Assembly (NCBI GenBank): GCA_015059195.1
Contig: SVAW01000003.1
Span: 30,445 to 94,444 of the forward strand
From: Bacillota bacterium
GTDB lineage: Bacteria > Bacillota_I > Bacilli_A > RF39 > UBA660
Direction: 5' to 3'
Length of the DNA stretch: 64,000 nucleotides
The position numbers and the translations under genes were made by a program. This document shows, one piece after another, positions 152 through 53,960 of the stretch. The notes beneath the pieces are model-generated. The model did no database searches. It was not told where the DNA came from and worked only from the letters and a program-made list of their open reading frames with translations. Numbering within the stretch: position 1 is the first letter of the stretch; each line of letters begins with the position of its first letter.

Positions 152-2086
152 GTGAAAAAAAAAGAACAAACTTTAGTTTCGATAATTATGGGGATATATA
201 ATTGTGGTAATTATTTGGAATCAAGTATAGAATCGATTATTAATCAAACATATAATAATTGGGAATTAATAATGTGTGATGATGGTTCAAAGGATAACAC
301 GTTAAAAATCGCTCAAAAATATGAAAAACAATATCCTAAAAAAATTAAAGTAATTAAAAATAAACAAAACATGGGTTTAAATTATACATTAAATCATTGT
401 TTGGAATATGCTAGTGGAGATTATATTGCTAGACAGGATGGTGATGATATCTCTCTGCCAGAACGTTTAGAAAAGGAAATGGAATTTTTACAACAACACC
501 CAGAATATTCGTTAGTAAGCTCAAACATGATATTCTTTGATGAAAATGGTGATTGGGGAGAAAGCAAGAATTTTGGTGAAGTAAAAAAAGAAAACTTTAT
601 CAAAGGTAGTCCTATTTGCCATGCACCTTGTATTATGAAAAGGGAAGCATTACTCTCTGTTGGGGGATATTCTGTTGACTCTAAACTATTAAGAGTTGAA
701 GATTATCATCTATGGTTTAAGTTTTATATAAATGGATATAAATGTTATAATTTGTCTGAGTCTCTATATAAAATGAGAGATGATAGTAACGCTTTTAAAA
801 GAAGAAATTTTAAAAACAGAATAAATGAAACGCGTTTAAAATTGTGGGGATTTAGGAAAATAAAAATATCATTAAAGGATTATATATGGGCATTTAAACC
901 AATCATGCTGTTTCTTCTCCCACGAAAGATTTATGAAATGCTTCACAAAAACAACATGAAAAAACTTAGTAATAACAAAATAAAAATTGCCCAATTTGTA
1001 GGCTCAATGAACTGCGGCGGAACAGAGACGATGCTTATGAATATATTTGAAAAGTTTGATAAAGAAAAATATGAAGTTACATTTATTGAAAATGTTGATT
1101 TTGAATGTTGGTATGACAAGAAAATTAAAGATTTAGGTGGCTCAATAATTAAAATAAAACCATTTAGATTTGTAAATTACTTTTCTTATTGTAAAGAATT
1201 AACCAAGGTTTTAAAACAATTCGATGTTGTGCATTCTCATACTTTCTTACACACAGGTATAGTGTTAAGATGTGCAAAAAAAGCTGGTGTTCAAATTCGT
1301 ATTGCCCATTCGCATAGTGCAATGAAAATGAATTTTTCTTTTAAGTTAAAATCATTAATTTTTAGAAAAATGATATTAAAAAATGCAACCAATTTATTAG
1401 CTTGTTCAACGGAAGCAGGGTATTGTTTGTATGGTGATATATTTAAGGATAAGGGAGAAGTTATATCGAATCCTATAGACCTTGATAAAATGAATATACC
1501 AACTAAAGATATTGATGAATTAAGAAAACAGCATAATATTGATAATGACACATTAATAATTGGGCATGTTGGTAGGTTTGTAGCACTAAAAAACCATGCG
1601 TTTATGTTAGAAATTGCTAAAAAGTTAAAAGTGAGAAACATAAAGTTTAAGATGATGTTTGTTGGGGATGGCCCATTATTTGAAGAAGTTAAATCAAAAA
1701 TCAGCGACTTTAATTTAAAAGATCAAATAATATTGGTGGGATTAACTACTGAAGTATATAAATATATGAAGCTGTTTGATTTGTTTTTATTACCTTCAGT
1801 ATATGAGGGGCTACCAGTTACTTTAGTGGAAGCTCAAGCTGCAGCCCTTAATTCTTTAGTATCAGATAATGTTAGTAGGGAAGCAGATTTTAATTTAGGT
1901 TTAATTAAATTTTTAAGCATAGATAATAATTTGGATGGGTGGGTTAATAGTATTTCAAGTTTCGCACCTTCAAAAGTTGATTCTAAATTAATAAAAAAAG
2001 TTTTTGAAAAGAAAAGGTATACCACTGATTCTTTAATTAATAGATATGAAGAATTGTATAATATAGGAGATGATACTAATGAATAA
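152..2086 (+). CDS. two-domain glycosyltransferase (N-terminal GT2 domain, C-terminal GT4-like domain)
   Basis: 644-aa ORF with GTG start after AGGTGA. N-terminal has DDGSKDNT (GT2 DxD-type motif); C-terminal has EGLPVTLVEAQAAAL (GT4 E-X7-E-type motif). Confidence 0.65.
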   Translation: MKKKEQTLVSIIMGIYNCGNYLESSIESIINQTYNNWELIMCDDGSKDNTLKIAQKYEKQYPKKIKVIKNKQNMGLNYTLNHCLEYASGDYIARQDGDDISLPERLEKEMEFLQQHPEYSLVSSNMIFFDENGDWGESKNFGEVKKENFIKGSPICHAPCIMKREALLSVGGYSVDSKLLRVEDYHLWFKFYINGYKCYNLSESLYKMRDDSNAFKRRNFKNRINETRLKLWGFRKIKISLKDYIWAFKPIMLFLLPRKIYEMLHKNNMKKLSNNKIKIAQFVGSMNCGGTETMLMNIFEKFDKEKYEVTFIENVDFECWYDKKIKDLGGSIIKIKPFRFVNYFSYCKELTKVLKQFDVVHSHTFLHTGIVLRCAKKAGVQIRIAHSHSAMKMNFSFKLKSLIFRKMILKNATNLLACSTEAGYCLYGDIFKDKGEVISNPIDLDKMNIPTKDIDELRKQHNIDNDTLIIGHVGRFVALKNHAFMLEIAKKLKVRNIKFKMMFVGDGPLFEEVKSKISDFNLKDQIILVGLTTEVYKYMKLFDLFLLPSVYEGLPVTLVEAQAAALNSLVSDNVSREADFNLGLIKFLSIDNNLDGWVNSISSFAPSKVDSKLIKKVFEKKRYTTDSLINRYEELYNIGDDTNE

Positions 2087-2957
2087 AAAAGTATTTTGTA
2101 CAGTTTTTACGCCTACATATAATAGGGCAAAAAATTTAACAAAGTTATATAATTCATTATGCGAACAAGATTTTTCTGATTTTGAATGGTTAATTGTTGA
2201 TGATGGCTCTAGTGATGATACAGAAAAATTAGTGGCCCAATTTATCAAAAAGCATAAAATTGAAATTGTATATAAAAAGACAGAAAATGGTGGCAAGCAT
2301 AGAGCTATTAATTATGGTTTGGATTTTGCACGTGGTGAAGTATTTGCTATTGTAGATTCAGATGATTATTTAAAGAAAGACGCCTTAACAAAAATATATA
2401 AGCGGTTTAAAAAATTACCTAAAAAAAATTATGCTGGAATTGCATTCCAAAGAGGGTATGAATCTAGGGAAGCAATTGGAAGCACTTTTGAGGGAGAATA
2501 TGTTGATGCTACCAGTTTAGAAAGAAACAAGTATAATATTTCTGGTGATAAATTTGAGATTTTCTTTACTAAAATTTTACAAGAACATAAATTTCCTGAA
2601 TTTAAAGGAGAAAAATTTATGACTGAAATGGTTGTATGGAACCGTATCGCTAGATTAGGCTATAAAATAAGATGGTTTAATGATATTATATATATTTGTG
2701 AATATTTACCAGACGGATTGACTGCTAATTTGTTTAAGTTATATAAGAATAACCCAAAAGGATTTGCATTAAATATCAAGGAACAGGTTCAGTTTGACAA
2801 TATATCATTTAAACAAAAAATGTCGTACTATTCTTTATATTATATGATAAGAAAAGAAGAAAAAAATTTAATTGAAATTTCAAAAGAAATTAATGCTAGT
2901 CCGGTGATTTTATTATTTGCTTATATGGCGAGGATGTTAATATGGAAGAAAAGGTAA
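2070..2957 (+). CDS. family-2 glycosyltransferase
   Basis: 295 aa with VDDGSSDDT and VDSDDY motifs. Overlaps the upstream gene by 17 nt, suggesting translational coupling. Confidence 0.7.
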   Translation: MILMNKKVFCTVFTPTYNRAKNLTKLYNSLCEQDFSDFEWLIVDDGSSDDTEKLVAQFIKKHKIEIVYKKTENGGKHRAINYGLDFARGEVFAIVDSDDYLKKDALTKIYKRFKKLPKKNYAGIAFQRGYESREAIGSTFEGEYVDATSLERNKYNISGDKFEIFFTKILQEHKFPEFKGEKFMTEMVVWNRIARLGYKIRWFNDIIYICEYLPDGLTANLFKLYKNNPKGFALNIKEQVQFDNISFKQKMSYYSLYYMIRKEEKNLIEISKEINASPVILLFAYMARMLIWKKR

Positions 2958-4465
2958 CGTTTTCAAGAACTAAATTGGCGATAAAAAATACCATTTTCAA
3001 TTTAATATATCAAGCGTCTAATATACTAGCAAGTTTATTGGTTCCTCCGCTATTAATTAATAATTTTGGGTCTGCTATTAATGGATTAATTGCAACCTTA
3101 AAGCAGGTTATTACATATGTTCAGTTAGTTGGTGCAGGGATTTCAGATTCAACAACATTTTCTTTATATAAACCACTATCTACACAAGATAAAAAGGGTA
3201 TAAATTCTATATATAATGCCACTAATTATGCTTTTAATGTTGCTGGGATTCTTTTTTCTTTAATTGCAGTTGGAGTTGCTTTTATATATCCTGTCATCAT
3301 TCAAAGCGAAATTAATTACCTTTTAGTAGTGGGAATAGTTTTAGCTCTATCTATAGCAGGAGCATCCGAATTCTTTTGCTTAGGTAAATATCGTTCTTTG
3401 TTAGTCGCTGACCAAAAAATTTATATTGTAAATATAGCTCAAGTGGTAGGAACAATTATTTCTACTATAGCTACTATTGTTTTAATTAAACTACATTGTA
3501 ATATTTTTTTGGTTCAACTAATATCGTCTCTAACCTATGTTTTAAGAATCATCATTTTATATGCGTATATAAAAAAACATTATCCTTATTTAGATAAAAA
3601 AGAGCCTAAAGACATGAGTGCTATTTCTAAGAGAAAAGATGCTACTATTCATCAGCTAGCTTCTCTAGTCATTTTTGGCAGCCAAACATTATTTATAGCC
3701 AAGTATTGTGGCTTAATGGAGGTTAGTGTATACTCTGTTTATAATTTAGTTTTCGTTGGCATTAGTACAATTTTATCAACGGTATCTTCTGCGCTCCTAG
3801 CTGGATTTGGTAATGTTATAGCAACCAGTGATAAAGAAAAACTAAATAAAGTTTATAATGTATATGAATATGTATTTTATATTTTGACATTTACAGTTTT
3901 CGCAATTACAAGTATAATGATAATACCATTTGTTAAACTTTATACCAGTGGTGCTACAGATGTCAATTATATTAGAGGGAACCTTGTTATTTTATTTACT
4001 ATAATGGGTCTCCTTAATTGTCTTAGAACTCCAGGAGCAACAATTATTAATGCGAGCGGGCATTATAAAGAAACTAAAAGTAGAGCTATTATTGAGATGA
4101 TTTTGTGTGTTGTTTTTCAATTTGTTTTTGTTCAAAAATTTGGTATTATAGGTATTTTAATAGGCACAATAATTGCATATTTATATAGAACAATTGATGT
4201 AATTGTTTATAGCCATCAAATAATACTTAAAAGTAGTTTGAGGAAAACTTTGTTTAGGATTGTTGTTGGTTTTACTGTATTAATTATGGTATATTTTATT
4301 TCTAACAATATCAACATCAATTGTCAGGGATATTTTGAGTGGATGTTGTTTGCTGTTATAGTTTCGTTAATTGTTGGAATGATATATTTATTTGTTAATA
4401 TGGTGGTTGATAAAAAAACATTCATAGAATTAAAAGATTACATGATAAGTGTTATAAGAAAATAG
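2942..4465 (+). CDS. wzx: polysaccharide biosynthesis protein, Wzx-like flippase (MOP superfamily)
   Basis: 507 aa, about 12-14 hydrophobic segments, typical Wzx size and topology. Sits inside a glycosyltransferase cluster. Confidence 0.6.
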   Translation: MEEKVTFSRTKLAIKNTIFNLIYQASNILASLLVPPLLINNFGSAINGLIATLKQVITYVQLVGAGISDSTTFSLYKPLSTQDKKGINSIYNATNYAFNVAGILFSLIAVGVAFIYPVIIQSEINYLLVVGIVLALSIAGASEFFCLGKYRSLLVADQKIYIVNIAQVVGTIISTIATIVLIKLHCNIFLVQLISSLTYVLRIIILYAYIKKHYPYLDKKEPKDMSAISKRKDATIHQLASLVIFGSQTLFIAKYCGLMEVSVYSVYNLVFVGISTILSTVSSALLAGFGNVIATSDKEKLNKVYNVYEYVFYILTFTVFAITSIMIIPFVKLYTSGATDVNYIRGNLVILFTIMGLLNCLRTPGATIINASGHYKETKSRAIIEMILCVVFQFVFVQKFGIIGILIGTIIAYLYRTIDVIVYSHQIILKSSLRKTLFRIVVGFTVLIMVYFISNNININCQGYFEWMLFAVIVSLIVGMIYLFVNMVVDKKTFIELKDYMISVIRK

Positions 4466-4477
4466 ATGAGGTGTTGT

Positions 4478-5164
4478 ATGAATATTATTAAAAAAATCAT
4501 TAATTTTATAATGATTAAGATTAAATTTAAAAATAGCAATATTAAGTCGTTTCACATATCCAAAGGTGTAACAATAGGGAATAATTGTTTAATTAGTAAA
4601 TATACACAAATTGGAGATAATGTTAAAATTGGTGATTGTACATATTTTAATTCAGATAAAAATTGGATTATTGTTGAATCAAACGTTAAGATCGGTAAAT
4701 ATTGTTCTATTGCACCAGGTGTGGTAATTGGAGTTGGGAATCATAATTATAATAATGTAACAACCCATCCAATTTTATACAATCCATACTATTTAAATAA
4801 TATGAATTTAGATAATAGTAAGTTAAAGCAAAATGGGCTAGTAGATAAAGACGTATATACCGTTATTGGTAATGACGTTTGGATCGGTATGAATGCTAAT
4901 ATAAAAAGAGGAATAACTATAGGGGATGGGGCTGTTATCGGCGCCGGTGCTGTAGTAACTCATGATGTTCCTCCTTATGCAATTGTTGGTGGGGTTCCCG
5001 CTCATATTATAAAATATAGATTTGATAAAGAACAGATTAACAAACTTTTACAAAATAAATGGTGGGATTGGAGTAATGAGCAATTGGATCAGAATTTTAA
5101 TCTTTTATATAATATTAACGATTATATAAAATGGAGTGATATTAATGAAAACAAAAAAGATTAA
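4478..5164 (+). CDS. hexapeptide-repeat (LbH) sugar O-acetyltransferase
   Basis: Repeated [LIV]G-x-x-x-x-I hexapeptide pattern (IGDNVKIGDCTYF, IGKYCSIAPGVVIG, IGNDVWIGMNANI). Start set at ATG 4478, which follows GAGGTG. Confidence 0.65.
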   Translation: MNIIKKIINFIMIKIKFKNSNIKSFHISKGVTIGNNCLISKYTQIGDNVKIGDCTYFNSDKNWIIVESNVKIGKYCSIAPGVVIGVGNHNYNNVTTHPILYNPYYLNNMNLDNSKLKQNGLVDKDVYTVIGNDVWIGMNANIKRGITIGDGAVIGAGAVVTHDVPPYAIVGGVPAHIIKYRFDKEQINKLLQNKWWDWSNEQLDQNFNLLYNINDYIKWSDINENKKD

Positions 5165-6638
5165 TATGCTATATTTAATATACTTAGTTTTAATTGTTTC
5201 CAACTTGTTGTTTCCTATTTTTCTAAAATCCACTTTATCTATTCAAATGTTATCCTTAATTTTTGGGGCAGTTAGTGTAATTGAATTATTGTTAGGGATA
5301 TATATATGGTACAAAAAAAATGGTTCTCTTAATTCGGCATTTATATATTTTATATTATCTTGTTATGTTTGTTGGTTTGGGCAAATTATTGTCTGTGGGT
5401 TGAATTTATTACCTAAATATTTAGTAGAGATCACCAATTTTGCAAGCGGAGCTTTTATACATACAGGGGCTTTTGCTTTAATTGGCTTTGGGGCCTTGTT
5501 TTTAGGTGGAATATTAAAATATGAAAACAAAACAAAAGTTACACAAAATAAAAACATACGTAATAAAAATTTATCTAAAGCCTTGTTAATGGTTGGATTA
5601 TTCATGATAGTAATTAGCGTTTTTGGCCATTATTATGATTTAATTAACAAATTAATTATTTCATTAAAATATGGTTATGCTGCATTATATGAACAAGTTA
5701 AAACACCTTCCCCAATTTATAATATTTTTTCGAATTTAAAAATGTTTTTTTGGCCAGGAATATTTTTTTTGTTAATGGCATGTAAGGGTAATAAGAATGT
5801 ATTTAATACTATTTTAGGAGTTGCATTAGTTGATATTATTCTAAATTTTGTGATTGGTAGTCGCAGTGACGCTTTAGTAATCATTTTAGCTATGTTTTGG
5901 TTTTACACTAATGAATACAGAAGCATTAAGCTTAAGGAGTATATTGTAATAGCCATTATATTAATTATTTTATTACATTTAGTTAGCACAATTGCCTCAT
6001 TTAGGTTATTACCTAATAAAACATTATTATTATTTTTAAAAGAATTATTTAATTTTAGTAATAACACAATAGTAAAAACTATAAATGAATTTGGTTTTAA
6101 CATTTTTTCACTGCATTATACAATGCTGCTTATTCCTAGCACAAAATTCTACGCTTTAGGTTATACTTATTTTGCCTCTATTATGGCAATTATTCCTAGT
6201 GCATTAATGGGTGGGTTTTCATTTTCTGCAGCCGCTGGATTGCCCGATTGGTTAAAAACGACCTTACATATGGATTATGGGCCTGGTTATTCTATTTTGG
6301 CCGAATCATTTTATAATTTTGGTTATTTTGGGGTTTTTGCGATGTTTATAATTGGAATTTTAGCCGGGAAATTATTTAGCAACAAATTTAAAGGAGATAA
6401 AAAAATTATTAAAAATGGTATTATTGCCATAATAATATACCTGAATATTTTTATAGCTAGGGATACCTTTCTAATGGTATTTAGAAAAATGTTTTATACG
6501 ATAGCAATACCATTGTTATTAGTTAGTCTTCTTTATAAAATTTTTAAAAACAAGTCTAAAAATAAATTGTATATTAAATTTAAAAATATAAGTAATAAAA
6601 TTTATTTATTTTTTAATCAATCAGCAAATAAAAGTTAA
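5145..6638 (+). CDS. Wzy-like oligosaccharide repeat-unit polymerase / O-antigen ligase family membrane protein
   Basis: About 500 aa, highly hydrophobic polytopic protein directly after Wzx and the acetyltransferase. ATG 5145 follows GGAG. Confidence 0.5.
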   Translation: MKTKKINMLYLIYLVLIVSNLLFPIFLKSTLSIQMLSLIFGAVSVIELLLGIYIWYKKNGSLNSAFIYFILSCYVCWFGQIIVCGLNLLPKYLVEITNFASGAFIHTGAFALIGFGALFLGGILKYENKTKVTQNKNIRNKNLSKALLMVGLFMIVISVFGHYYDLINKLIISLKYGYAALYEQVKTPSPIYNIFSNLKMFFWPGIFFLLMACKGNKNVFNTILGVALVDIILNFVIGSRSDALVIILAMFWFYTNEYRSIKLKEYIVIAIILIILLHLVSTIASFRLLPNKTLLLFLKELFNFSNNTIVKTINEFGFNIFSLHYTMLLIPSTKFYALGYTYFASIMAIIPSALMGGFSFSAAAGLPDWLKTTLHMDYGPGYSILAESFYNFGYFGVFAMFIIGILAGKLFSNKFKGDKKIIKNGIIAIIIYLNIFIARDTFLMVFRKMFYTIAIPLLLVSLLYKIFKNKSKNKLYIKFKNISNKIYLFFNQSANKS

Positions 6639-6731: not shown

Positions 6732-6760
6732 TTGACAGTTTTTCAAAAATATGGTAATAT
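6732..6760 (+). promoter_or_regulatory. near-consensus sigma-A promoter (TTGACA-17-TAATAT) driving the ORF-free region
   Basis: -35 TTGACA at 6732-6737, 17-nt spacer, -10 TAATAT at 6755-6760. Predicted TSS about 6767. Confidence 0.6.
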
Positions 6761-6766
6761 TTAATT

Positions 6767-7387
6767 GTGTTCAGAAATGGCACATTATTCTAGTCAATTT
6801 AACTTATTATGAAGGCGGGGCTAAAAATCCGCTAAAGAGCATATCGATGAAGCTTCTTGTGTTTGCTTCTTACGCCCAGTCTGGGGTGGATGCTGGAAGA
6901 TTGAGTATTGGGCGCTCGTAATGGCATACGATACCGACCCAATATTCTTGGAGACCTATACTTGTATAAAGCCTATACACTTAACAGTTGAAGGACTTTG
7001 TACGAATTAGGATTAAACCTACTATGTGGGGAAACTTACGAGTAGCGTAGCTTGTCTTGAGTGAGCTATAGGGGATAATTGATCAAACTAAGTAGTTTAT
7101 AGCTAGGATTATTTAGTATCGCAATTTGAAACTATTCTTGCAAAAAAGAATTAATAATAAGTGGTTGTTGAGGAAATCTCCTAGAGTGCATTATTAATAT
7201 GGGATTGCAGTGCGTACTAAGTGGCAATCAAGTCGTATAGATGGAAACACTATATTGTTATCTTTAAAGGGAAACCGCTCATCTGGTAACGGAAAGTAGA
7301 AAACAGGGAAATCCAACTTGACCTAAGACGCAAAGTTAACTATATTAATAGCCATTAAACATATTGAGGGATAATCCCTTTTTTTGT
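6767..7387 (+). ncRNA. candidate large structured noncoding RNA (about 620 nt; OLE-like or other ornate-large-RNA class; identity unverified)
   Basis: No ORF of 60 aa or more in any frame across about 730 bp; the ATG-initiated frames hit stops within 10-25 codons and lack an RBS. GC visibly higher than flanks (about 40% vs about 28%). Many local hairpins, e.g. GCGG..CCGC 6815-6832; CGCCCAGU..AUUGGGCG 6882-6935; AGCUAUA..UAUAGCU about 7062-7102; AUUCUU-gcaaaa-AAGAAU 7133-7150. Ends in intrinsic terminator GAGGGA-UAA-UCCCUU plus U7 at 7366-7387. No match to RNase P, tmRNA or SRP hallmark sequences. Confidence 0.5.
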
Positions 7388-7434
7388 GTCTAAATTTAAG
7401 TCGCTTTTTGTCGAAATAAGGCGATTTCAAAATG

Positions 7435-7463
7435 TTGAATCGCTAGTATACAGATGATATAGT
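7435..7463 (+). promoter_or_regulatory. sigma-A promoter for csp (TTGAAT-17-TATAGT)
   Basis: -35 TTGAAT at 7435-7440, 17-nt spacer, -10 TATAGT at 7458-7463. Lies downstream of the ncRNA terminator. Confidence 0.5.
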
Positions 7464-7496: not shown

Positions 7497-7712
7497 ATGA
7501 GAAGCAAAGTAAAATGGTTCAACAATGATAAAGGCTATGGTTTCATCGAAAACGGAAGCGGAACAGAAGATATATTCGTACACTATTCTGCAATTTTATC
7601 AGATGGCTTTAAGACTTTGGTTGAAGGACAATATGTTGAGTTTGAACTAGTTAGAACTGACAAAGGTTTGCAAGCTAAAAATGTAGTAGAAATTAAAACA
7701 GCTTTAGTTTAA
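7497..7712 (+). CDS. cspA: cold-shock protein (CspA family)
   Basis: 71 aa with [12 protein letters not shown] and DIFVHYSAI (RNP1/RNP2 cold-shock-domain motifs). RBS AAGGGAG. Confidence 0.9.
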
Positions 7713-7771: not shown

Positions 7772-8320
7772 ATGGCTAAAGAAAAATTAAAAAAACCAAG
7801 CATTAATTATTCATGGATAGTAAAAATTTCAGTTATTTCATTTGTGATTTCATTCGCGTTTTCTGGAATTTCAGAAATAGCACTACCAAACGTACCTTTA
7901 TTAGTAGGAATTATACTAGTCTTTATATTTATCATATTAGGGGTAATATTTGATATGATAGGTGTAGCGGTTACATCATCAGATGAAAAGCAATTTAATT
8001 CAATGAGTTCTAGAAAAATTAAAGGCGCTAAAACTGCAGTAAATTTTAAAAAGAATGCTGAAAAAGTTTCTTCCTTTTGTAATGATGTGATAGGAGATAT
8101 CTGTGGCATTGTGTCTGGGTCTGCTGGAGTTATGATTGCGGCAAATATCGCTAGTGAGTTAGATATTCCATTATTTTTGACTTCACTAACCGTTACTGCT
8201 TTAATAGCCGCGTTAACTATTGGAGGCAAAGCCTTAGGAAAAGGTTTTGCAATTTCTAAAGGTAACGACATTTTCTTTACTTTTGCTAAAGTTATCTCAT
8301 TTTTTAAATCGGAAAAGTAA
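7772..8320 (+). CDS. small 4-TM membrane protein (possible OapA-like partner of upstream ncRNA)
   Basis: 182 aa with four hydrophobic segments. RBS GAGG 8 nt upstream. No enzymatic motif. Confidence 0.5.
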   Translation: MAKEKLKKPSINYSWIVKISVISFVISFAFSGISEIALPNVPLLVGIILVFIFIILGVIFDMIGVAVTSSDEKQFNSMSSRKIKGAKTAVNFKKNAEKVSSFCNDVIGDICGIVSGSAGVMIAANIASELDIPLFLTSLTVTALIAALTIGGKALGKGFAISKGNDIFFTFAKVISFFKSEK

Positions 8321-9012: not shown

Positions 9013-10215
9013 ATGGATATACAATTAAAAATAGCATTAGATAACGAAAAAACACGTCAACAAAATAATATAGAGTTAATTGCATCAGAAAACTATGTTT
9101 CAGATAGTATATTAGAATTACAGGGGAGCATTTTTACTAATAAATATGCTGAAGGTTACCCAAATAAAAGATATTATGGTGGGTGTGAAAATGTAGATAC
9201 AGTTGAAAATCTTGCCATTTCATATGCGTGCCAATTATTTAATGTAAAGTTTGCAAATGTTCAACCGCATAGTGGTAGTAGCGCCAATATGGCAGTTTAT
9301 AGATCTTTATTAAATCACGGCGATAAGGTATTAGCTCTTAATTTAGACCAAGGTGGACATTTAACCCATGGTCATAAAATTAACTTTAGTGGTATTGATT
9401 ATGAAATGCATTTTTATCAGGTAGATCCTCTGACGCACATGATTGACTATAATGTGGTAGAGGAAATTGCGTTAAAAGAGCAACCAAAAATGATCATAGC
9501 TGGAGCTAGTGCATATTCTAGAGCCATTGATTTTAAAAAGTTTAGAGAAATTGCAGATAAATGTGGGGCGTATTTAATGGTGGATATGGCGCATATCGCA
9601 GGACTTGTAGCCACAAGGTTACACCAAAACCCTACAGAATATGCACACGTAGTTACATCTACTACCCACAAAACACTTAGAGGACCAAGGGGTGGTTTAA
9701 TTTTAACTAATGATGAAGAAATTATAAAAAAGATAAATAAAACAATTTTTCCTGGTATTCAGGGAGGCCCATTAATGCATGTAATAGCTGCTAAAGCTCA
9801 ATGTTTTTATGAGGCACTACAACCCGAATTTAAATTATACCAACAACAAGTACTTAAAAATTGTAAAGTGTTATGTGATACATTAAAAGGATTTGGGGTT
9901 AAAGTTATTACAGGAGGCACTGATAACCATTTAATTTTAATTGATGTAAAATCATCTTTTGGTATAAATGGCAAAGAAGCAGAGGAAATTTTAGATAAAA
10001 TTAACATCACTGTAAATAAAAATGCGATTCCTTTTGATACAGAGTCACCTATGATTACTAGTGGAATTAGAATAGGTACTCCCGCAATGACAACAAGAGG
10101 GTTTAAAGAAAATGAGTTTAAACTAATTGGGGAGATAATTTATAAGGCTTTAAATAAAGACACAGATTTAAATGAGCTTAAAGCAGCTGTATTAGATTTA
10201 ACAAAGAATATTTAG
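9013..10215 (+). CDS. glyA: serine hydroxymethyltransferase
   Basis: Hallmark SHMT sequence including PLP-lysine region [18 protein letters not shown] 9013 preceded by AGAGGG. Confidence 0.95.
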
Positions 10216-10226
10216 GAGGTAAAAAT

Positions 10227-11063
10227 ATGATAATGGATGGCAAGGAATTAAGTAGAAAAATAAGAGAAGAAATAAGGACAGAGGTTAAATCATACATGAT
10301 TAAACCTTGTTTAGCAGTAATTCAAATTGGAGATGACCCTGCCAGCAATGTTTATGTCGCTTCAAAAGAAAAAGCATGCAATGAAGCTGGGATATATTTT
10401 AAACATATTAAGTATTCAGAGGATACTCGCGAAAAAGAAATAATTAACAAAATTGTTGAAATGAATAATGATGAATATGTAAATGGAATCCTATTACAAC
10501 TGCCAATCCCAGAAAAATATAATTCAGAACGAATTATTAATTACATTGCTCGTAATAAAGACGTAGACGGATTAACAGATATAAACGTCGGGAAATTATT
10601 AAATAATAAAAAATGCCTAGTTTCATGTACTCCCCAAGGGATTATGGAACTAATGAAACATTATCAGATTGATTTAGAAGGGAAAAATGTTGTTATAGTA
10701 GGTCGAAGCAACTTGGTCGGGAAACCCTTAATCAGCCTGTTTTTAAATCATAATGCCACCGTATCCATATGTCATTCGAAAACAGTAAACCTTAAAAGTT
10801 ATACGTTAAATGCAGATATATTAGTAGTTGCTGTAGGTAAAAAATATATTATTACTGAAGACATGATAAAAAAGGATGCGATTGTCATTGATGTTGGTAT
10901 TAATCGCGAAAATAATATGATATACGGCGATGTAGATTTTGAAAAGGTAAAAGAAAAAGCTTCTTATATCACTCCTGTACCAGGAGGAGTAGGACCAATG
11001 ACTGTAGCAATGCTTTTAAGAAATGTTAATGAGTGTTATAAAAAGATGAACACCAGTAAATAA
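10227..11063 (+). CDS. folD: bifunctional methylenetetrahydrofolate dehydrogenase/cyclohydrolase
   Basis: 278 aa with the FolD fold pattern (GRSNLVGKP NAD(P)-binding region). Adjacent to glyA. Confidence 0.9.
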   Translation: MIMDGKELSRKIREEIRTEVKSYMIKPCLAVIQIGDDPASNVYVASKEKACNEAGIYFKHIKYSEDTREKEIINKIVEMNNDEYVNGILLQLPIPEKYNSERIINYIARNKDVDGLTDINVGKLLNNKKCLVSCTPQGIMELMKHYQIDLEGKNVVIVGRSNLVGKPLISLFLNHNATVSICHSKTVNLKSYTLNADILVVAVGKKYIITEDMIKKDAIVIDVGINRENNMIYGDVDFEKVKEKASYITPVPGGVGPMTVAMLLRNVNECYKKMNTSK

Positions 11064-11929: not shown

Positions 11930-12006
11930 GGCGATGTAGCTCAGCTGGCTAGAGCGTCCGGTTCATACCCGGAAGGTCGTGGGTTCGATCCCCTCCGTCG
12001 CTACCA
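11930..12006 (+). tRNA. tRNA-Met (anticodon CAU; alternatively tRNA-Ile2/lysidine)
   Basis: Cloverleaf: acceptor GGCGAUG, D-arm GCUC-AGCUGGCUA-GAGC, anticodon stem UCCGG/CCGGA with loop UUCAUAC (anticodon CAU), T-loop UUCGAUC, encoded CCA at 12004-12006. Confidence 0.85.
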
Positions 12007-15764: not shown

Positions 15765-15944
15765 TTATCTATTGTTAGAGCATTGATTAAATGCACGAGA
15801 ACCTATAACAATTACTAATAAAATAAATAATACTAATATAATTGCTGCTCCGTATCCTGTACCATATCCACCGCCATAACCATAGTTTTGTTGCCCACAG
15901 CCACAGCCATTACCGTAACCTTGATAACCACCGTAATAATACAT
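15765..15944 (-). CDS. YjcZ-like small Gly/Tyr-rich sporulation membrane peptide (59 aa, below ORF-track cutoff)
   Basis: Manual translation: MYYYGGYQGYGNGCGCGQQNYGYGGGYGTGYGAAIILVLFILLVIVIGSRAFNQCSNNR. GGAGG 8 nt upstream of ATG. Terminator hairpin aaggaagcagaaacttcctt plus U-run downstream on the minus strand. Confidence 0.6.
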   Translation of the reverse strand: MYYYGGYQGYGNGCGCGQQNYGYGGGYGTGYGAAIILVLFILLVIVIGSRAFNQCSNNR

Positions 15945-22393: not shown

Positions 22394-22780
22394 ATGAAAA
22401 TATTAAAAAGGGAAAATTGGTGGATTTGGCTATTACTTCTGCTATTTTCACAAGGAAGTAGCTCATTAGTGTTAGGAGCACTAGTTGATGTATATGATAA
22501 AAACGCATGGTATGCTAAATGGCAATATTGGGTTATTGCTCTTCTTTGCCTAGTTTATCCCGCGCTAATTATGGCAAGTATATTTTTAATTCAAATTCTT
22601 TGTTTAACTGCAGCAAAATTAGATATTCCAGGAAAAGAAATATATTTAAGCCCTTATCTTTGGATAATTGGGGCGGTAATTCCTTTCATTGGTTGGGCAT
22701 GCTTAATAGCCGGAATTATTTATTTAGAGGTATATACTCTAATCGCGTTATACCGAGGAAATGCTGAAAAATACATATAA
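22394..22780 (+). CDS. hypothetical small membrane protein
   Basis: 128 aa with 3-4 hydrophobic segments. GGAGG RBS. Sits where mutL is usually found. Confidence 0.45.
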   Translation: MKILKRENWWIWLLLLLFSQGSSSLVLGALVDVYDKNAWYAKWQYWVIALLCLVYPALIMASIFLIQILCLTAAKLDIPGKEIYLSPYLWIIGAVIPFIGWACLIAGIIYLEVYTLIALYRGNAEKYI

Positions 22781-22846: not shown

Positions 22847-23254
22847 ATGGAACAATTGAACAGAAGCGAATTAAGAAAAAAAATAATGACAATATTGTAT
22901 CAAATAAATATTTATGATAAAAATAAAATAGAATATAGTGTAGATAATGTAATTAAAGAAGTTTGTGAAATCGAGAATGAATTTGTAAAAGATATCGTAT
23001 ATGGCGTAATTACTTATAAAAAAGATATTGATGACCTAGCTAATCAATATTTAAATGAATGGACTATCGATAGATTAGGTAATACTGATCAATCAATATT
23101 GCGTATGGGGATATATGAATTAATATATACAGATACTCCAGAAATAGTTTCTATTAATGAAGCTGTTGAACTGGCTAAACTATATAGTGACGATGACGTA
23201 CGTAAAATGATTAACGGGGTTATGGATAAAGTATACCACAGTAAGAAGGATTAA
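22847..23254 (+). CDS. nusB: transcription antitermination factor NusB
   Basis: 135 aa. Size and sequence pattern of NusB, and position immediately upstream of xseA as in Bacillus. Confidence 0.75.
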   Translation: MEQLNRSELRKKIMTILYQINIYDKNKIEYSVDNVIKEVCEIENEFVKDIVYGVITYKKDIDDLANQYLNEWTIDRLGNTDQSILRMGIYELIYTDTPEIVSINEAVELAKLYSDDDVRKMINGVMDKVYHSKKD

Positions 23255-23255
23255 T

Positions 23256-24524
23256 ATGAAAGACGATAAATATTTAAGTATCACAGCTATAACAAGATAT
23301 TTAAAATATAAATTGGATTCTGATGAACATTTAAAGTGTGTTTTTCTTAAAGGAGAAATATCTAATTTTAAGGCCCACAGTACTGGGCATCTATATTTTT
23401 CATTAAAAGATGAAACTAGTAAAATAAATGCTATTATGTTTAGTACAAATGCTAAAAAAATCACTTTTCAACCTAAAGAAGGGGATAAAGTATTAGTAGC
23501 AGGAAGAATTGGTGTATATGAGTCAACCGGGAACTATCAAATATATGTAGATGAGATGTTAGAAGATGGTGTTGGTAATTTATATGTCGCATTTGAAAAA
23601 CTCAAAGCAGATTTAGCTAAAGAAGGCTTATTTGATGAATCACATAAGCAAACGATACCAAAAATACCGACTAGAGTAGGAATTATTACTGCTCCAACAG
23701 GTGCTGCAATCAAAGATATTATATCTACCATAAGAAGAAGATTCCCTTTATGTGAAACCTTATTGTTTCCTGCATTAGTACAAGGGGAAAATGCGGCTAG
23801 TGATATTGCAAATAAAATTAAAATTGCTAATACTTACAACATTGATGTATTGATAGTTGGCCGTGGTGGTGGTTCAATTGAAGATTTATGGCCATTTAAC
23901 GAAGAGGTTGTGGCTAGAGCTATATATAACTCTAAAGTGCCAATTATAAGTGCAGTAGGGCATGAAGTTGACTTTACTATTGCTGATTTTGTGGCAGACT
24001 TAAGAGCTCCGACTCCAACAGGTGCAGCAGAACTTGCAGTACCAAATATGGTAGATGTTAAAAAACAAATTGAACAATTTAAAATTAGAGCCAATGAAAA
24101 TATTTCAAAAAGATTAAACTATGAGAAACTACATTTCGAATCTTTGAAAAATTCATTTGTAATTAAAAACCCAGTAATAATGTATGAGAATAAACAACAA
24201 AAACTAGATCTCGTTTTAGAAAAGATTAAAAATCTTATATCTAATAGACTAGAAATTTCTAAGGGAAAATTTCAGATATTAAAAAATAATTATATTTTAA
24301 ACAATCCAACATTATTATATAAGGATAATCTGGTAAAATTAAATATGATAATAGAAAAGCTAGAGTTGATTAATCCTCTAGGGGTATTGAAACGAGGTTA
24401 TTCATTAACATATCAAGATAACAAAATTATAAAAGATGTTAACGACCTGGAAATTAATTCTAATATCTTAATTAAGATGCAAAATGGTGAAATAACTGCA
24501 CAAGTAAAAGATATTAAAAAATAA
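23256..24524 (+). CDS. xseA: exodeoxyribonuclease VII large subunit
   Basis: N-terminal OB-fold region (GEISNFKAHSTGHLYFSLKD) and catalytic core (GRGGGSIEDLWPFNEE). Confidence 0.9.
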   Translation: MKDDKYLSITAITRYLKYKLDSDEHLKCVFLKGEISNFKAHSTGHLYFSLKDETSKINAIMFSTNAKKITFQPKEGDKVLVAGRIGVYESTGNYQIYVDEMLEDGVGNLYVAFEKLKADLAKEGLFDESHKQTIPKIPTRVGIITAPTGAAIKDIISTIRRRFPLCETLLFPALVQGENAASDIANKIKIANTYNIDVLIVGRGGGSIEDLWPFNEEVVARAIYNSKVPIISAVGHEVDFTIADFVADLRAPTPTGAAELAVPNMVDVKKQIEQFKIRANENISKRLNYEKLHFESLKNSFVIKNPVIMYENKQQKLDLVLEKIKNLISNRLEISKGKFQILKNNYILNNPTLLYKDNLVKLNMIIEKLELINPLGVLKRGYSLTYQDNKIIKDVNDLEINSNILIKMQNGEITAQVKDIKK

Positions 24525-25448: not shown

Positions 25449-26444
25449 ATGTTTTTTATGTTTTTTAAAATTTTTAAAAAGACATGTCTTTGCCTTCTTC
25501 TTTCATTATTTATTATACCATCATGCATATTAGCTTATTCAGACTATGTTATTGTGGGTGGAGAAAATATTGGGATAGAATTAAATGCTAAAGGAATTAT
25601 GGTAGTTGGAGTATATAAAGTAGGTAATAGTTATCCGGCTGTAGAAGCAGGGATTAAAGTTGGAGATTTAATTACTAGTATTGATAATCAGGAAGTTAAA
25701 AATATTAATGAACTATCGCAAAAGATAAATAGCAGACTTAGTGACACAATAAAAATTGGTTATGTGCGAAATGATACAACAAAATATACTAATTTGAAAT
25801 TATATAAAGATAATAATATTTATAAAACCGGTCTTTATGTCAAAGATTCTATTACTGGAATAGGTACTCTAACGTATATTGATCCCAATACCAAGTTGTT
25901 TGGCGCACTAGGGCACGAAATTATTGAAAAAAATACAGGTAAAGTATTAGAGATAAAAGATGGAAAGATTTTTACATCCGAGGTTATAAATATAGAGCCT
26001 AGTGTAAATGGTGTGCCTGGTGAAAAAAATGCCAAATTAAATAGCAGTGAGACTATTGGTACTATTTTCGAAAATACTACTAAAGGAATATTTGGTAATT
26101 ATGATTCAAAACTCAATGATGCCCGTTTATACAAGGTTGGAAATATTTCAAACATAAAAAGAGGAGAAGCAATTATTAGAACTGTAATTAATAAAGATAA
26201 AGTAGAAGAATTTACTATAAATATTTTAAAAGTTAATGATAATTCTAAAACTAAAAATATCGTGTTTGAAATAACTGACAAGACATTATTAAATCAAACT
26301 GGAGGAATAGTTCAAGGCATGAGCGGATCTCCTATAATACAGGGTGAATATATAGTAGGGGCAGTTACTCATGTTGTTGTGGATGACACCACTAAAGGCT
26401 ATGGAATACTAATTACTAATATGTTAGAAGAAGCAGAAAATTAG
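25449..26444 (+). CDS. spoIVB: SpoIVB-like S55 serine peptidase (PDZ + peptidase domain)
   Basis: Signal peptide, PDZ-like region (GIKVGDLITSIDNQEV) and S55 active-site region GGIVQGMSGSPII. Terminator hairpin ttaggg-tttta-tccctaa at 26441-26465. Confidence 0.7.
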   Translation: MFFMFFKIFKKTCLCLLLSLFIIPSCILAYSDYVIVGGENIGIELNAKGIMVVGVYKVGNSYPAVEAGIKVGDLITSIDNQEVKNINELSQKINSRLSDTIKIGYVRNDTTKYTNLKLYKDNNIYKTGLYVKDSITGIGTLTYIDPNTKLFGALGHEIIEKNTGKVLEIKDGKIFTSEVINIEPSVNGVPGEKNAKLNSSETIGTIFENTTKGIFGNYDSKLNDARLYKVGNISNIKRGEAIIRTVINKDKVEEFTINILKVNDNSKTKNIVFEITDKTLLNQTGGIVQGMSGSPIIQGEYIVGAVTHVVVDDTTKGYGILITNMLEEAEN

Positions 26445-30114: not shown

Positions 30115-30695
30115 AGAATAGAACCCCTATTCTTTTTTTGGATTTTAAAAATAGGGGAGCAATCGTAAATTATTACTTTTTTTAATCTAGGCATTTACCA
30201 GTAATATATATATTATATCGGGAATAATGTATAAATATTAGACCATAATAATAGTGGTTTACCATTAAAAAACATCAATAATCCCCCTATTATTATTAAA
30301 ATGAGAAGAGGAGACAAAAGTAAAATTAAACAAAAAAGTAGACGCATTTTAAGCGTTTTTTTCATTTAAAGGATGGGCAATTATTCATCCCAATTCATTA
30401 AAATAAACGATACAATTATCAAATATCCGATTAACATTAACGTAACAACTTAAAGTATTATAACTAATTACAATAGCAATGATTTATAAACATACTATAT
30501 TATTAATTTTAGCACCTAATAATGTTATTATTTATAGTATATCCAATCATTAAAAATCTACTAAAAGTAAAGAAAAATAACATAATTTAATATTATATAT
30601 TATTTTCGGATAATGAATATTATGTTAACTTCTATAAATAAATAATTATTTGTATATTTTAGGATTTTTAAACCATAATAATAATGGGTGATAAA

Positions 30696-30851
30696 ATGAA
30701 AGCGAATAAAAAGACAAATATGAATAATTCTTCTAAAACAAGTTATAATTGTAACACTAACAATAATAACGCTAGTAAGAATAATACTCAAAAAACAAAC
30801 AAAGCATCAGAAGCTAGTTCTAATGCTCGTAACTCTTTTGACTTTGAATAG
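30696..30851 (+). CDS. putative 51-aa Asn/Ser/Thr/Lys-rich small protein
   Basis: MKANKKTNMNNSSKTSYNCNTNNNNASKNNTQKTNKASEASSNARNSFDFE. RBS GGGTGAT. Intrinsic terminator GAAGC-ctatgc-GCTTC plus T6 at 30867-30893. Confidence 0.4.
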   Translation: MKANKKTNMNNSSKTSYNCNTNNNNASKNNTQKTNKASEASSNARNSFDFE

Positions 30852-33339: not shown

Positions 33340-34236
33340 CTAATTATCCCCATGAGGATGAGCATTATTATAATTTTCTTTTAAGTGTTCACTAGAAACA
33401 TGTGTGTATATTTGAGTTGTAGAAATATTAGAATGACCCAACATTTCTTGAATACTACGTAAATCTGCCCCATAATCTAGTAAATGAGTTGCGAAAGAAT
33501 GTCTTAATGTATGTGGTGAAAGTGATGTTTTAATATCCTTTTCTATAGCTAAAGTTTTAATAATTTTAAAAAATCCTTGTCTTGTCATTGGTAGCCCATG
33601 ATTGTTTACAAATATAAAATCATGATACTTATTTTTCATCATCTCACTACGATATTCCAATATATATTTTCTTATATAATAAATGGAATAGTCGTTAATT
33701 GGAATAATTCTTTCTTTATTTCCTTTACCCATCGTTCTGACAAAACAGTTTTCAAAATCAATATCATTTATCTTTAGATGAACTAATTCACTAACTCTAA
33801 GCCCTGTCGCATACATAAGTTCCAGCATCGCTTTATTTCTATAACTATAATTATCTTTTAAATTAATATCTAATAATGTTTCTACTTCTTCTTTGGAAAG
33901 TGCAGTTGGCAAGGTCTTTTTTAATTTTGGTAACTCCAAAAATTCGGATGGATTTATATCTATAATTTTTTCAATAAGCAAAAACTTATAAAAAGTTCTT
34001 ATAGCAGACACATTATGTGCTAAAGAACGATCACTAATTTTAGATTGTTTCATATGATGTAAATATTCCTTAATATCCGTATTCTTAATATTTTCAATAT
34101 TTAAATTTTTATCTTTAAAAAAATCTAAATATTTTTTTATTTCTATATGATATGACTCCACAGTAAGATTGCTGTACTTTTTGTCGATTTTTAAATAGTC
34201 ACAAAAATCATTTAATAAACTATCATATTCGTTCAT
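33340..34236 (-). CDS. xerD: tyrosine site-specific recombinase XerD-like
   Basis: C-terminal catalytic region HTLRHSFATHLL...LGHSNISTTQIYTHV (R-H-R-Y family). N-terminal SAM-like core-binding domain. Confidence 0.8.
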   Translation of the reverse strand: MNEYDSLLNDFCDYLKIDKKYSNLTVESYHIEIKKYLDFFKDKNLNIENIKNTDIKEYLHHMKQSKISDRSLAHNVSAIRTFYKFLLIEKIIDINPSEFLELPKLKKTLPTALSKEEVETLLDINLKDNYSYRNKAMLELMYATGLRVSELVHLKINDIDFENCFVRTMGKGNKERIIPINDYSIYYIRKYILEYRSEMMKNKYHDFIFVNNHGLPMTRQGFFKIIKTLAIEKDIKTSLSPHTLRHSFATHLLDYGADLRSIQEMLGHSNISTTQIYTHVSSEHLKENYNNAHPHGDN

Positions 34237-34285: not shown

Positions 34286-35224
34286 TTATCTGTTTTGGAA
34301 TCTAGTAGTCATTTGCTTAATAAACACATTTCTATCTGATAACGAACGTTGTTTGATTTTAGCCAATATCTCTATCGACAAATCCCTTCCAAGCATACTT
34401 TTACAATAATCATCAAAATAGTTTATACCAAGTACATAAAAATAATTTGCTAACTTAGTTGTATAAGTATCAAAAGATATATCTTTATTCATTAATCTAT
34501 CCAATGTGTTTTTTAAATAAAGTGAAAACAATAAATGGCTATCTCTACGACATAGTTTGCCTGTTTTCAGTGGTTTGTTGTTTTCTAAAAATTTTAAAAT
34601 CTGCTCTTTAGAACCATATTTTACTAGTCCATTAATAACACTACCTAAATCTACACTAAAGTATGATTTTAACATTAATTGTGGTCCTACAATTTCTTCT
34701 ATTATCTCGGCTATTTTGACTTGGATTGAACTCCCAAAAAATAAATCGTCTTCAACAAAATATCGTTTGACTAGTAAATGCGTATATCCTTCATTTAAAG
34801 TTTGCCCAATATTAATACGTTTATCCCAGGTCACTTGATTAAAACCACACAATATTTGCTCATTCTTATAATCTACAAGAGTACTCGCGGCATGTAAAAA
34901 TTCATGATCCATATCTGTTGAACTACTCAAATCATCATAATGAATTTCATTTGCTACAGTATTATATGCTGCTTTAACTTTATTAAAATTTCTTGCTTTA
35001 TAAGCTCTAAACCACGGATCATTTTTTAGTATTCTTAAACTTCTTAAGTTATGAAAGAAGATATTTAAATCAATCCCATTTTTTGGCCCTAATATTGATA
35101 TAAAATTTAACATTTCATCATGACATGGCGTTGTTCTAACTCGTTCCATTAAAATCTTGCGTTCATCATCTAATACTTTAGGCATGGAAACACTGGATGT
35201 CTCAATATATCTCATTTTTTGCAT
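34286..35224 (-). CDS. hypothetical protein with HExxH (zincin-like) motif
   Basis: 312 aa. HEFLHAAS is the only recognisable motif. No TM segments. Confidence 0.45.
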   Translation of the reverse strand: MQKMRYIETSSVSMPKVLDDERKILMERVRTTPCHDEMLNFISILGPKNGIDLNIFFHNLRSLRILKNDPWFRAYKARNFNKVKAAYNTVANEIHYDDLSSSTDMDHEFLHAASTLVDYKNEQILCGFNQVTWDKRINIGQTLNEGYTHLLVKRYFVEDDLFFGSSIQVKIAEIIEEIVGPQLMLKSYFSVDLGSVINGLVKYGSKEQILKFLENNKPLKTGKLCRRDSHLLFSLYLKNTLDRLMNKDISFDTYTTKLANYFYVLGINYFDDYCKSMLGRDLSIEILAKIKQRSLSDRNVFIKQMTTRFQNR

Positions 35225-42801: not shown

Positions 42802-42872
42802 GCTATCACCATATCTATTATAACAAAATTAGGCAATAAAAAAAAGCCCAAATAATCGGCGTCGCAACGATT

Positions 42873-42891
42873 AAAAACCTAGTCTCCCAGG
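42873..42891 (-). terminator. intrinsic terminator after aspS (CCUGG-GAGA-CUAGG + U5)
   Basis: 5-bp stem with GAGA tetraloop followed by UUUUU on the minus strand. A second imperfect hairpin plus U8 lies at about 42841-42872. Confidence 0.45.
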
Positions 42892-43061
42892 TGGGCATCA
42901 CATTACTGATTTTAGGAGTCTCACTTAAAAGCAAGCTTTCAACACCACCAATAAATTAGATTCCCAATATCGTCAATTAGTAGGTTTTTCAAAATGACAA
43001 CCGTATTATTTAGGCAATTTAATTATATCATAAATCATACTTTTTTTAAATACAATTTACA

Positions 43062-53862: not shown

Positions 53863-53960
53863 ATTTACCTCCTTTATTTCTAAGACTCGCCATTAAGGTA
53901 CTTACGTTTTAAACCTTTTTCTGTGCGGTTGTAGAGTGAGGCTCTACACAATTAAAGATT
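53863..53960 (-). promoter_or_regulatory. L21 leader (ribosomal-protein autoregulatory leader) candidate
   Basis: Structured about 95-nt 5' leader with hairpin UGUAGAG-ccucac-UCUACA immediately upstream of rplU, as in the Firmicute L21 leader. Confidence 0.45.

What the first reader, a model, noticed from the sequence alone, without database searches (positions are those of the whole stretch)
6732..7387. ORF-free, GC-enriched ~620-nt transcription unit with consensus promoter and terminator: candidate ornate large ncRNA (OLE-like?)
A near-perfect sigma-A promoter (TTGACA-17-TAATAT, 6732-6760) fires into about 620 nt that contain no ORF of 60 aa or more in any frame. Every ATG-initiated frame stops within about 25 codons and lacks an RBS. 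GC is about 40% against a 28% background, as expected for a folded RNA. I can read several compensatory hairpins, including the 8-bp CGCCCAGU/AUUGGGCG pair enclosing about 45 nt, AGCUAUA/UAUAGCU, and AUUCUU/AAGAAU. The unit ends in an intrinsic terminator at 7366-7387, before a separate csp promoter. It lacks the hallmark sequences of RNase P RNA (GGAAAGUCC), tmRNA or SRP RNA. Length (about 610 nt for OLE), host type (anaerobic spore-forming Firmicute) and a nearby 4-TM membrane protein of about 20 kDa (7772-8320) resemble the ole-oapA arrangement, though a csp gene sits between them here. The adjacent cold-shock gene is suggestive, because OLE has been linked to cold and alcohol tolerance. 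I cannot verify class membership by eye; it could equally be ROOL-like or an undescribed large RNA.
Basis: partly seen in the sequence, partly recalled or inferred. Interest (0 to 1): 0.85.

Follow-up and report, generated by a model that had tools for sequence, protein, structure and literature searches.

The report
A canonical OLE RNA gene
The ORF-free, GC-rich stretch is an ordinary full-length copy of the already well-described bacterial OLE RNA with its membrane partner gene oapA nearby; the only unusual thing is a cold-shock protein gene wedged between the two.

Summary
Window 6761-7371 (+) matches Rfam OLE (RF01071) over the whole model at 404 bits (threshold 50). On an independent alignment of 108 OLE loci, the consensus structure is strongly supported: 84.6% of cells paired against 68.3% in shuffles, and a covariation score of 0.488 against 0.208.

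The 182-aa protein at 7772-8320 is OapA. It has four hydrophobic segments, the family's DxxxD motif and a weak CNNM match. The promoter and terminator are conserved in position among relatives.

OLE is a known class, reported in 2,822 species, so this is not new. One local peculiarity is worth recording. In about 113 of 119 species representatives oapA directly follows ole and none has a csp gene nearby. Here, and in six further close-relative lineages, a strongly conserved csp with its own promoter sits between them. In this clade ole also lies at the edge of a variable cell-wall glycan locus, and one relative has a recombination crossover inside ole. Interest is low.

The parts
6732..6760 (+). 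sigma-A type promoter of ole (TTGACA, 17 nt, TG-n-TAATAT); transcription start inferred near 6767
   Evidence: 10 of 12 matches, TG present. In one search the -35 hexamer, spacing and TG-extended -10 are conserved in 9 loci from several species while the upstream flank diverges.
6761..7371 (+). OLE RNA (ole gene), full-length type
   Evidence: RF01071, 404.2 bits, model 1-616/616; 139 of 152 consensus pairs canonical, 214 of 249 highly conserved nucleotides identical; covariation on 108 sequences.
7099..7105 (+). L9.3 loop AUAGCUA carrying the self-complementary AGCU (UAGCUA); predicted intermolecular kissing loop of the OLE dimer
   Evidence: nearly all 108 OLEs have a palindromic tetranucleotide here (GGCC in most; AGCU, GUAC, GCGC, UCGA in others). 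PMC12286853 reports GGCC/GAUC/AGCU covariation for dimer bridge B3.
7235..7255 (+). P13 hairpin: 5 bp, single bulged G7240, 3 bp, GAAA tetraloop (7244-7247); predicted primary OapB binding site
   Evidence: Mapping of the Rfam structure. [quoted passage not shown]
7286..7289 (+). GUAA (GNRA) tetraloop closing P14.1; predicted secondary OapB site
   Evidence: for the mapping; (PMC7936274) for the secondary site.
7366..7387 (+). intrinsic terminator-like hairpin plus T-run ending the ole unit
   Evidence: In one search the relatives each have a hairpin plus T-run at this place, with different stem sequences.
7435..7463 (+). promoter of csp (TTGAAT, 17 nt, TG-n-TATAGT)
   Evidence: conserved in L121-L127 and also in L130, which has no OLE upstream.
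7497..7712 (+). csp: 71-aa CspB-type cold-shock protein inserted between ole and oapA
   Evidence: PF00313, 93 bits; Bacillus CspB, E 5e-22; no CSD gene in any of 119 other OLE loci; 97-99% identical among relatives.
7772..8320 (+). oapA: 182 aa, 19.4 kDa, four hydrophobic segments, DxxxD at 105-109
   Evidence: motif and hydropathy; the CNDVxGDI block is at least 80% conserved in 108 OLE-adjacent homologs. (weak CNNM hit). (homologs directly follow OLE in about 113 loci).

Best explanation
The region is the ole gene, encoding a full-length OLE (ornate, large, extremophilic) RNA of about 605-620 nt.

Shown here:
- It matches the OLE covariance model end to end.
- It keeps the conserved helices and invariant nucleotides.
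- It has a conserved promoter and a terminator-like hairpin of its own.
- It lies 400 nt upstream of an oapA gene.

Inferred from published work on the family:
- The RNA folds into the OLE architecture and forms a homodimer. The self-complementary L9.3 loop (AGCU form here) is one of the dimer bridges.
- The RNA is tethered to the membrane by dimers of OapA, a 4-TM protein related to CNNM/MpfA divalent-cation transporters.
- OapB binds at the P13 GAAA tetraloop and bulge. OapC and bS21 bind at k-turns near P5/P6.
- The particle helps the cell tolerate cold, short-chain alcohols, excess Mg2+ and poor carbon sources.

Local twist, with its function inferred only: in this subclade a CspB-type RNA-chaperone gene with its own promoter sits between ole and oapA, with no terminator-like site before oapA. 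OapA is therefore probably made from a csp-oapA transcript, while OLE is made as a separate, probably far more abundant, unit.
For: -: RF01071 at 404.2 bits (gathering score 50), E 2.8e-115, model 1-616/616.
- 139 of 152 consensus pairs are canonical and 214 of 249 conserved nucleotides are identical.
- on a MAFFT alignment of 108 OLE loci, 84.6% of cells pair against 68.3% shuffled and 40-46% slid. The covariation score is 0.488 against 0.208 shuffled (0 of 500 shuffles reach it) and at most 0.146 slid. 128 of 152 pairs change on both sides.
- the downstream protein is OapA (DxxxD motif, four hydrophobic segments, homologs adjacent to OLE in about 113 loci).
- promoter and terminator are conserved in position.
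- L9.3 palindrome.
- GNRA loops and the P13 bulge are intact.
- OLE-csp-oapA recurs in relatives whose OapA is 75-100% identical.
- OLE is 94% identical in nucleotides where OapA is only 75% identical in amino acids.
Against: - No expression, end-mapping or localisation data are available, so transcript ends and the csp-oapA co-transcript are inferred.
- 13 consensus pairs are non-canonical and 7 are deleted, including a small 4-bp hairpin at about 7189-7192.
- The conserved UUAAGG stretch before P4a is changed at 6900-6904.
- OapB and OapC genes were not found in the 64-kb window, but they normally lie elsewhere in the genome.
- One relative (L130) has csp-oapA with no OLE within 10 kb.
Confidence: 0.97

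Rival explanations
1. The 620 nt are only a long 5' leader (UTR or thermosensor) of the csp gene, not an independent RNA gene.
For: csp follows on the same strand 125 nt after the OLE match. Cold-shock genes of other bacteria can have long regulatory leaders (general knowledge).
Against: - A terminator-like hairpin plus T-run separates them, and csp has its own promoter, which is conserved.
- OLE occurs without any csp in 119 other loci and in L131-L134.
- csp with the same promoter occurs without OLE in L130.
Confidence: 0.02
2. It is an OLE relic that has been uncoupled from oapA and is decaying or non-functional in this lineage.
For: The tandem ole-oapA arrangement is broken here. One relative has lost the adjacent OLE. 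Some conserved positions differ.
Against: - OLE is 94% identical between relatives whose OapA is 75% identical.
- The promoter is conserved across species.
- The Rfam score equals that of relatives with tandem oapA.
- The GNRA loops, the bulge and the kissing-loop palindrome are kept.
Confidence: 0.02
3. It is a different or undescribed large ncRNA (ROOL-, GOLLD-, HEARO- or raiA-like), or a frameshifted protein pseudogene.
For: None beyond its size and lack of an ORF.
Against: At gathering thresholds only OLE matches here, out of 4,227 Rfam families. The substitutions follow base-pair covariation, not codon structure. The 56-aa ORF at 6751-6921 has no family match where it was called as a gene in a relative.
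Confidence: 0.005

Closest known systems
OLE RNA (Rfam RF01071), full-length type; models from Halalkalibacterium halodurans and Clostridium acetobutylicum
   Same: Length (611 nt), all major helices, invariant sequence blocks, GNRA loops and bulge at P13/P14.1, a self-complementary L9.3 loop, a Bacillota host with anaerobe and sporulation markers, and oapA downstream.
   Different: - It is transcribed from its own promoter and ends at its own terminator-like hairpin. In H. halodurans it is part of a long polycistronic operon (PMC12265935).
- oapA is not immediately adjacent, because a csp gene intervenes.
- L9.3 carries AGCU instead of the common GGCC.
- A small hairpin before P12 is deleted.
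- The usual neighbours (nusB, xseA, folD) lie 3-16 kb away rather than flanking it.
OapA (OLE-associated protein A)
   Same: About 20 kDa, four hydrophobic segments, DxxxD inside the conserved CNDVxGDI block, a weak CNNM/PF01595 match, and a gene downstream of ole on the same strand.
   Different: It is separated from ole by csp and probably expressed from the csp promoter. The PF..MA block that is conserved in most homologs reads QFNSMS here.
CspB/CspA-family cold-shock proteins
   Same: Full-length CSD (PF00313, 93 bits). The RNP1-like KGYGFI and RNP2-like IFVHY motifs are present. The closest solved structures are Bacillus CspB.
   Different: Its position between ole and oapA was not seen in any of the 119 other OLE loci sampled. 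The mSphere 2024 paper on OLE-linked proteins has no occurrence of 'cold shock' or 'csp'.

Membership tests
OLE RNA (RF01071) | Score above the curated Rfam gathering threshold over the full model | tested here: met
   404.2 bits against a threshold of 50, model positions 1-616 of 616, not truncated.
OLE RNA (RF01071) | About 600 nt with many base-paired substructures supported by covariation | tested here: met
   611 nt. 152 pairs in 24 helices, 84.6% paired. Covariation 0.488 against 0.208 shuffled and at most 0.146 slid.
OLE RNA (RF01071) | Large fraction of highly conserved nucleotides present | tested here: met
   214 of 249 upper-case consensus positions are identical. About 100 columns are invariant across the 108 sequences.
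OLE RNA (RF01071) | oapA gene in tandem immediately downstream | tested here: inconclusive
   oapA is downstream on the same strand but 400 nt away, with csp between. It is directly adjacent in about 113 of 119 other loci.
OLE RNA (RF01071) | P13 GNRA tetraloop plus single-nucleotide bulge (OapB site) | tested here: met
   GAAA at 7244-7247 and bulged G7240; the criterion is from PMC7936274.
OLE RNA (RF01071) | Self-complementary L9.3 loop (dimer bridge B3) | tested here: met
   UAGCUA at 7100-7105; the criterion is from PMC12286853.
OLE RNA (RF01071) | k-turn near P5 bound by OapC/bS21; palindromic OapA sites near P2 and P4a | not tested
   I could not map these exactly from the text available. 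The conserved AUCGAUGAAG block is present (6842-6852), but UUAAGG before P4a is altered.
OLE RNA (RF01071) | Abundant transcript, membrane localisation, stress phenotypes | not testable with these tools
   Needs RNA-seq, fractionation and genetics.
OLE RNA (RF01071) | Host in Bacillota, typically an anaerobe or extremophile | tested here: met
   SpoIVB, SpoIIM, an M50/M23 pair upstream of rplU, and rubrerythrin are in the window. The protein is 100% identical to one from a 'Firmicutes bacterium' MAG.
OapA | About 21-kDa protein with four TM helices and a DxxxD motif, distantly CNNM-like | tested here: met
   19.4 kDa; hydrophobic segments at about 13-39, 41-71, 106-128 and 130-152; DVIGD at 105-109. 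PF01595 E 6.6e-4, below the Pfam cut-off, as expected for OapA (PMC11332333).
ROOL / GOLLD / HEARO / raiA / RNase P / tmRNA / SRP RNA | Match to the family's covariance model | tested here: not met
   no such match anywhere in the window at gathering thresholds. The only other RNAs are 6S, one tRNA and the L21 leader.

The most novel reading that the evidence does not exclude
The cold-shock protein encoded between ole and oapA is not a chance insertion. It would be a lineage-specific working partner of the OLE particle: an RNA chaperone co-expressed with OapA that helps OLE fold or function in the cold. That would give a direct genetic link between OLE and the cold-shock response.

A related possibility is that the relative with csp-oapA but no nearby OLE (L130) has lost OLE altogether. 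That would contradict the published rule that oapA occurs only in ole-containing organisms.
Probability: 0.1. Interest if true: 0.45.

Novelty: already known. Interest (0 to 1): 0.15.

Why it matters
As an RNA class this adds nothing new. OLE has been known since 2006, is in Rfam, has been surveyed in 2,822 species and has partial cryo-EM structures.

Three minor points may interest OLE specialists:
- A natural lineage in which ole and oapA are separate transcription units with a csp gene between them. This may bear on the cold phenotype of OLE mutants.
- ole sits at the border of a hypervariable cell-wall glycan locus and serves as a recombination crossover site.
- There is a possible oapA-without-ole relative.

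Tried and rejected
- The search for related loci with the single OapA sequence on genome contigs found nothing. I replaced it with a DNA pattern built from two invariant OLE blocks, which returned 120 loci.
Within the first, only the invariant GCCC/GGGC core is always complementary. Because it never varies, that says nothing, and those G residues pair elsewhere in the consensus.
- The csp-leader, pseudogene and other-RNA-family readings were rejected.
- I looked for OapB (KOW) and OapC (L7Ae-like) genes among 61 window ORFs by Pfam and found none. Three small ORFs stay unassigned (15765-15944, 22394-22780, 30600-30791).
- A PDB sequence search with OapA gave only chance-level hits.

Full report
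**Observation**

- TTGACA-17-TAATAT lies at 6732-6760 with a TG-extended -10.
- A hairpin GAGGGA-TAA-TCCCTT followed by a T-run lies at 7366-7387. The scan found 3 terminator-like sites in 2.1 kb against 0.5 expected.
- No ORF longer than 56 aa overlaps 6751-7430.
- The segment is 37.3% GC against 29.0% for the window, the highest of all 611-nt windows in the 64 kb.

Two details are wrong. The ATG at 6751 opens a 56-codon ORF, not about 25 codons. The CGCCCAGU/AUUGGGCG arms enclose 26 nt, not about 45.

**Identity**

A scan of the whole window against Rfam 15 at curated thresholds gives one match in this region. It is OLE (RF01071) at 6761-7371 (+), 404.2 bits against a gathering score of 50, E 2.8e-115, covering model positions 1-616 of 616. 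No other large-RNA family matches anywhere in the window. The other RNAs found are 6S (42841-43019, -), one tRNA (11930-12003) and the L21 leader (53873-53940, -).

I mapped the Rfam consensus structure onto window coordinates. Of 159 consensus pairs, 152 are present and 139 of those are canonical. Of 249 highly conserved consensus nucleotides, 214 are identical.

**Independent test of the structure**

A pattern made of two invariant OLE blocks retrieved 120 loci from species-representative genomes. nhmmer with the window's OLE hit 117 of them.

I aligned 108 near-full-length copies with MAFFT, without using the structure, and projected the Rfam-derived structure onto the alignment.
- 84.6% of cells form standard pairs, against 68.3% in column shuffles and 40-46% when partners are slid by 1-3 columns.
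- 128 of 152 pairs show changes on both sides.
- The covariation score is 0.488, against 0.208 shuffled (0 of 500 shuffles reach it) and at most 0.146 slid.

Their 'UAUAGCU' arm is in fact the L9.3 loop.

**Functional sites kept**

The cryo-EM work on OLE reports a symmetric intermolecular kissing loop at L9.3, whose internal palindrome covaries between GGCC, GAUC and AGCU (PMC12286853). In my alignment nearly every OLE has a self-complementary tetranucleotide there. It is GGCC in most, AGCU in the window and its relatives (UAGCUA, 7100-7105), and GUAC, GCGC or UCGA in others.

[quoted passage not shown] The window has GAAA at 7244-7247 with bulged G7240, and GUAA at 7286-7289.

P7, P8 and P9 are all present. 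This is therefore the 'full-length' type, not the reduced variants described for TANB77 and RF39 (PMC11332333).

**Partner gene**

The 182-aa product of 7772-8320 is 100% identical to a hypothetical protein of an uncultured 'Firmicutes bacterium' MAG and has more than 6,000 relatives of about 180-200 aa.
- It is 19.4 kDa, with four hydrophobic segments.
- It carries DVIGD (105-109) inside a CNDVxGDI block that is at least 80% conserved among 108 homologs lying next to OLE.
- It hits the CNNM Pfam model only weakly (E 6.6e-4).

These are the published hallmarks of OapA: four TM helices, a DxxxD motif and a distant CNNM/MpfA relationship (PMC9723947; PMC11332333).

**Transcription unit**

Across nine loci from several species, the -35 TTGACA, the 17-nt spacer and a TG-extended -10 sit just upstream of the OLE model start, while the DNA further upstream diverges. 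Each locus has a hairpin plus T-run after OLE with a different stem sequence. In this clade, then, OLE is a stand-alone unit. In H. halodurans it lies within a polycistronic operon (PMC12265935).

**What is unusual**

In about 113 of 119 other OLE loci an OapA homolog follows OLE directly, mostly within 150 nt. Not one of those 8-kb loci contains a cold-shock-domain gene. That includes the three closest species representatives, where the gaps are 27-60 nt.

In the window a canonical CspB-type gene (PF00313; E 5e-22 to Bacillus CspB) sits between the two. It has its own conserved promoter, and there is no terminator-like site before oapA.

The same OLE-csp-oapA order recurs in six further close-relative lineages whose OapA is 75-100% identical to the window's: the L122 strain and the P0002, P0004, P0010 and P0016 types. 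More distant relatives lack csp.
- L131 has OLE, then three glycan-synthesis genes, then oapA.
- L132 has LytR, Bro-N, OLE, oapA.
- L133 and L134 have rpsU(bS21), yqeY, OLE, oapA.

Csp is 97-99% identical among relatives whose OapA is 75-79% identical. One relative, L130, has csp-oapA with the same csp promoter but no OLE within 10 kb on either side, by both nhmmer and Rfam.

**Mechanism**

The family assignment, the structure, the partner gene and the conserved signals are shown here. What follows is inferred from the literature.
- The RNA dimerises.
- OapA dimers hold it at the membrane.
- It binds OapB, OapC and bS21.
- It supports tolerance of cold, short-chain alcohols, excess Mg2+ and poor carbon sources, possibly by modulating an OapA cation-transport activity.

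The csp-oapA co-transcript and any role of Csp in the particle are my inference only.

**Verdict**

Novelty is low. The local gene arrangement is a small, lineage-specific variation.

Noticed in passing
window 7497-7712 (csp), between ole and oapA; also L121, L122, L126, L127, L135-L138: A CspB-type gene with its own promoter sits between ole and oapA in this subclade only. No CSD gene occurs within the 8-kb loci of 119 other OLE-bearing species. Csp is 97-99% conserved where OapA is 75-79% conserved.
   Followed up: yes
L130 (ENA ERZ28436105 NODE_35), 9725-10549 and 10 kb on each side: A relative with the same csp promoter, csp and oapA but no OLE within 10 kb on either side. A LytR-family gene ends 133 nt before csp. 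I could not check whether OLE lies elsewhere in that genome.
   Followed up: partly
L122 2991-3600 compared with window 6761-7371 and L126: The OLE of L122 is a mosaic. It is identical to the L126 type up to about window position 7164 and identical to the window type from there on. Upstream it has L126-type glycan genes, and downstream its csp-oapA is 100% window-type. A recombination crossover therefore lies inside ole.
   Followed up: yes
window 152-6638; L121-L132 upstream of OLE: In this clade ole lies at the 3' edge of a cell-wall or surface glycan locus whose gene content differs between close relatives (GT2/GT4 and Wzy here; DegT/NTP-transferase/epimerase, or LytR-CpsA-Psr, elsewhere). 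In L131 three glycan genes are inserted between ole and oapA.
   Followed up: partly
window 10227-11063 (folD), 22847-23254 (nusB), 23256-24524 (xseA), 25449-26444 (SpoIVB): Genes that classically flank ole in other Bacillota (nusB, folD, xseA) are present but scattered 3-16 kb downstream. No ispA, dxs, tlyA or recN homolog was identified in the window. The canonical ole neighbourhood appears broken up here.
   Followed up: partly
L133 2619-2825 and L134 2701-2907: In more distant relatives the gene for ribosomal protein bS21 (rpsU), a reported OLE-binding protein, lies two genes upstream of OLE (rpsU-yqeY-OLE-oapA).
   Followed up: no
window 42841-43019 (-): 6S RNA (RF00013, 75 bits) lies between a ThiF-family gene and aspS.
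   Followed up: no
window 7400-7434: A block TTTGTCGAAATAAG.CGATT just upstream of the csp -35 is conserved in all csp-bearing relatives, including L130. It may be a regulator binding site.
   Followed up: no
window 6900-6904 and 7189-7192: Two lineage-specific departures from the OLE consensus. The conserved UUAAGG before P4a reads AUUGAG, and the small 4-bp hairpin before P12 is deleted. Close relatives share the deletion.
   Followed up: partly
window 33340-34236 (-): A tyrosine recombinase of the XerC/D or phage-integrase type, next to an unassigned 312-aa ORF (34286-35224).
   Followed up: no
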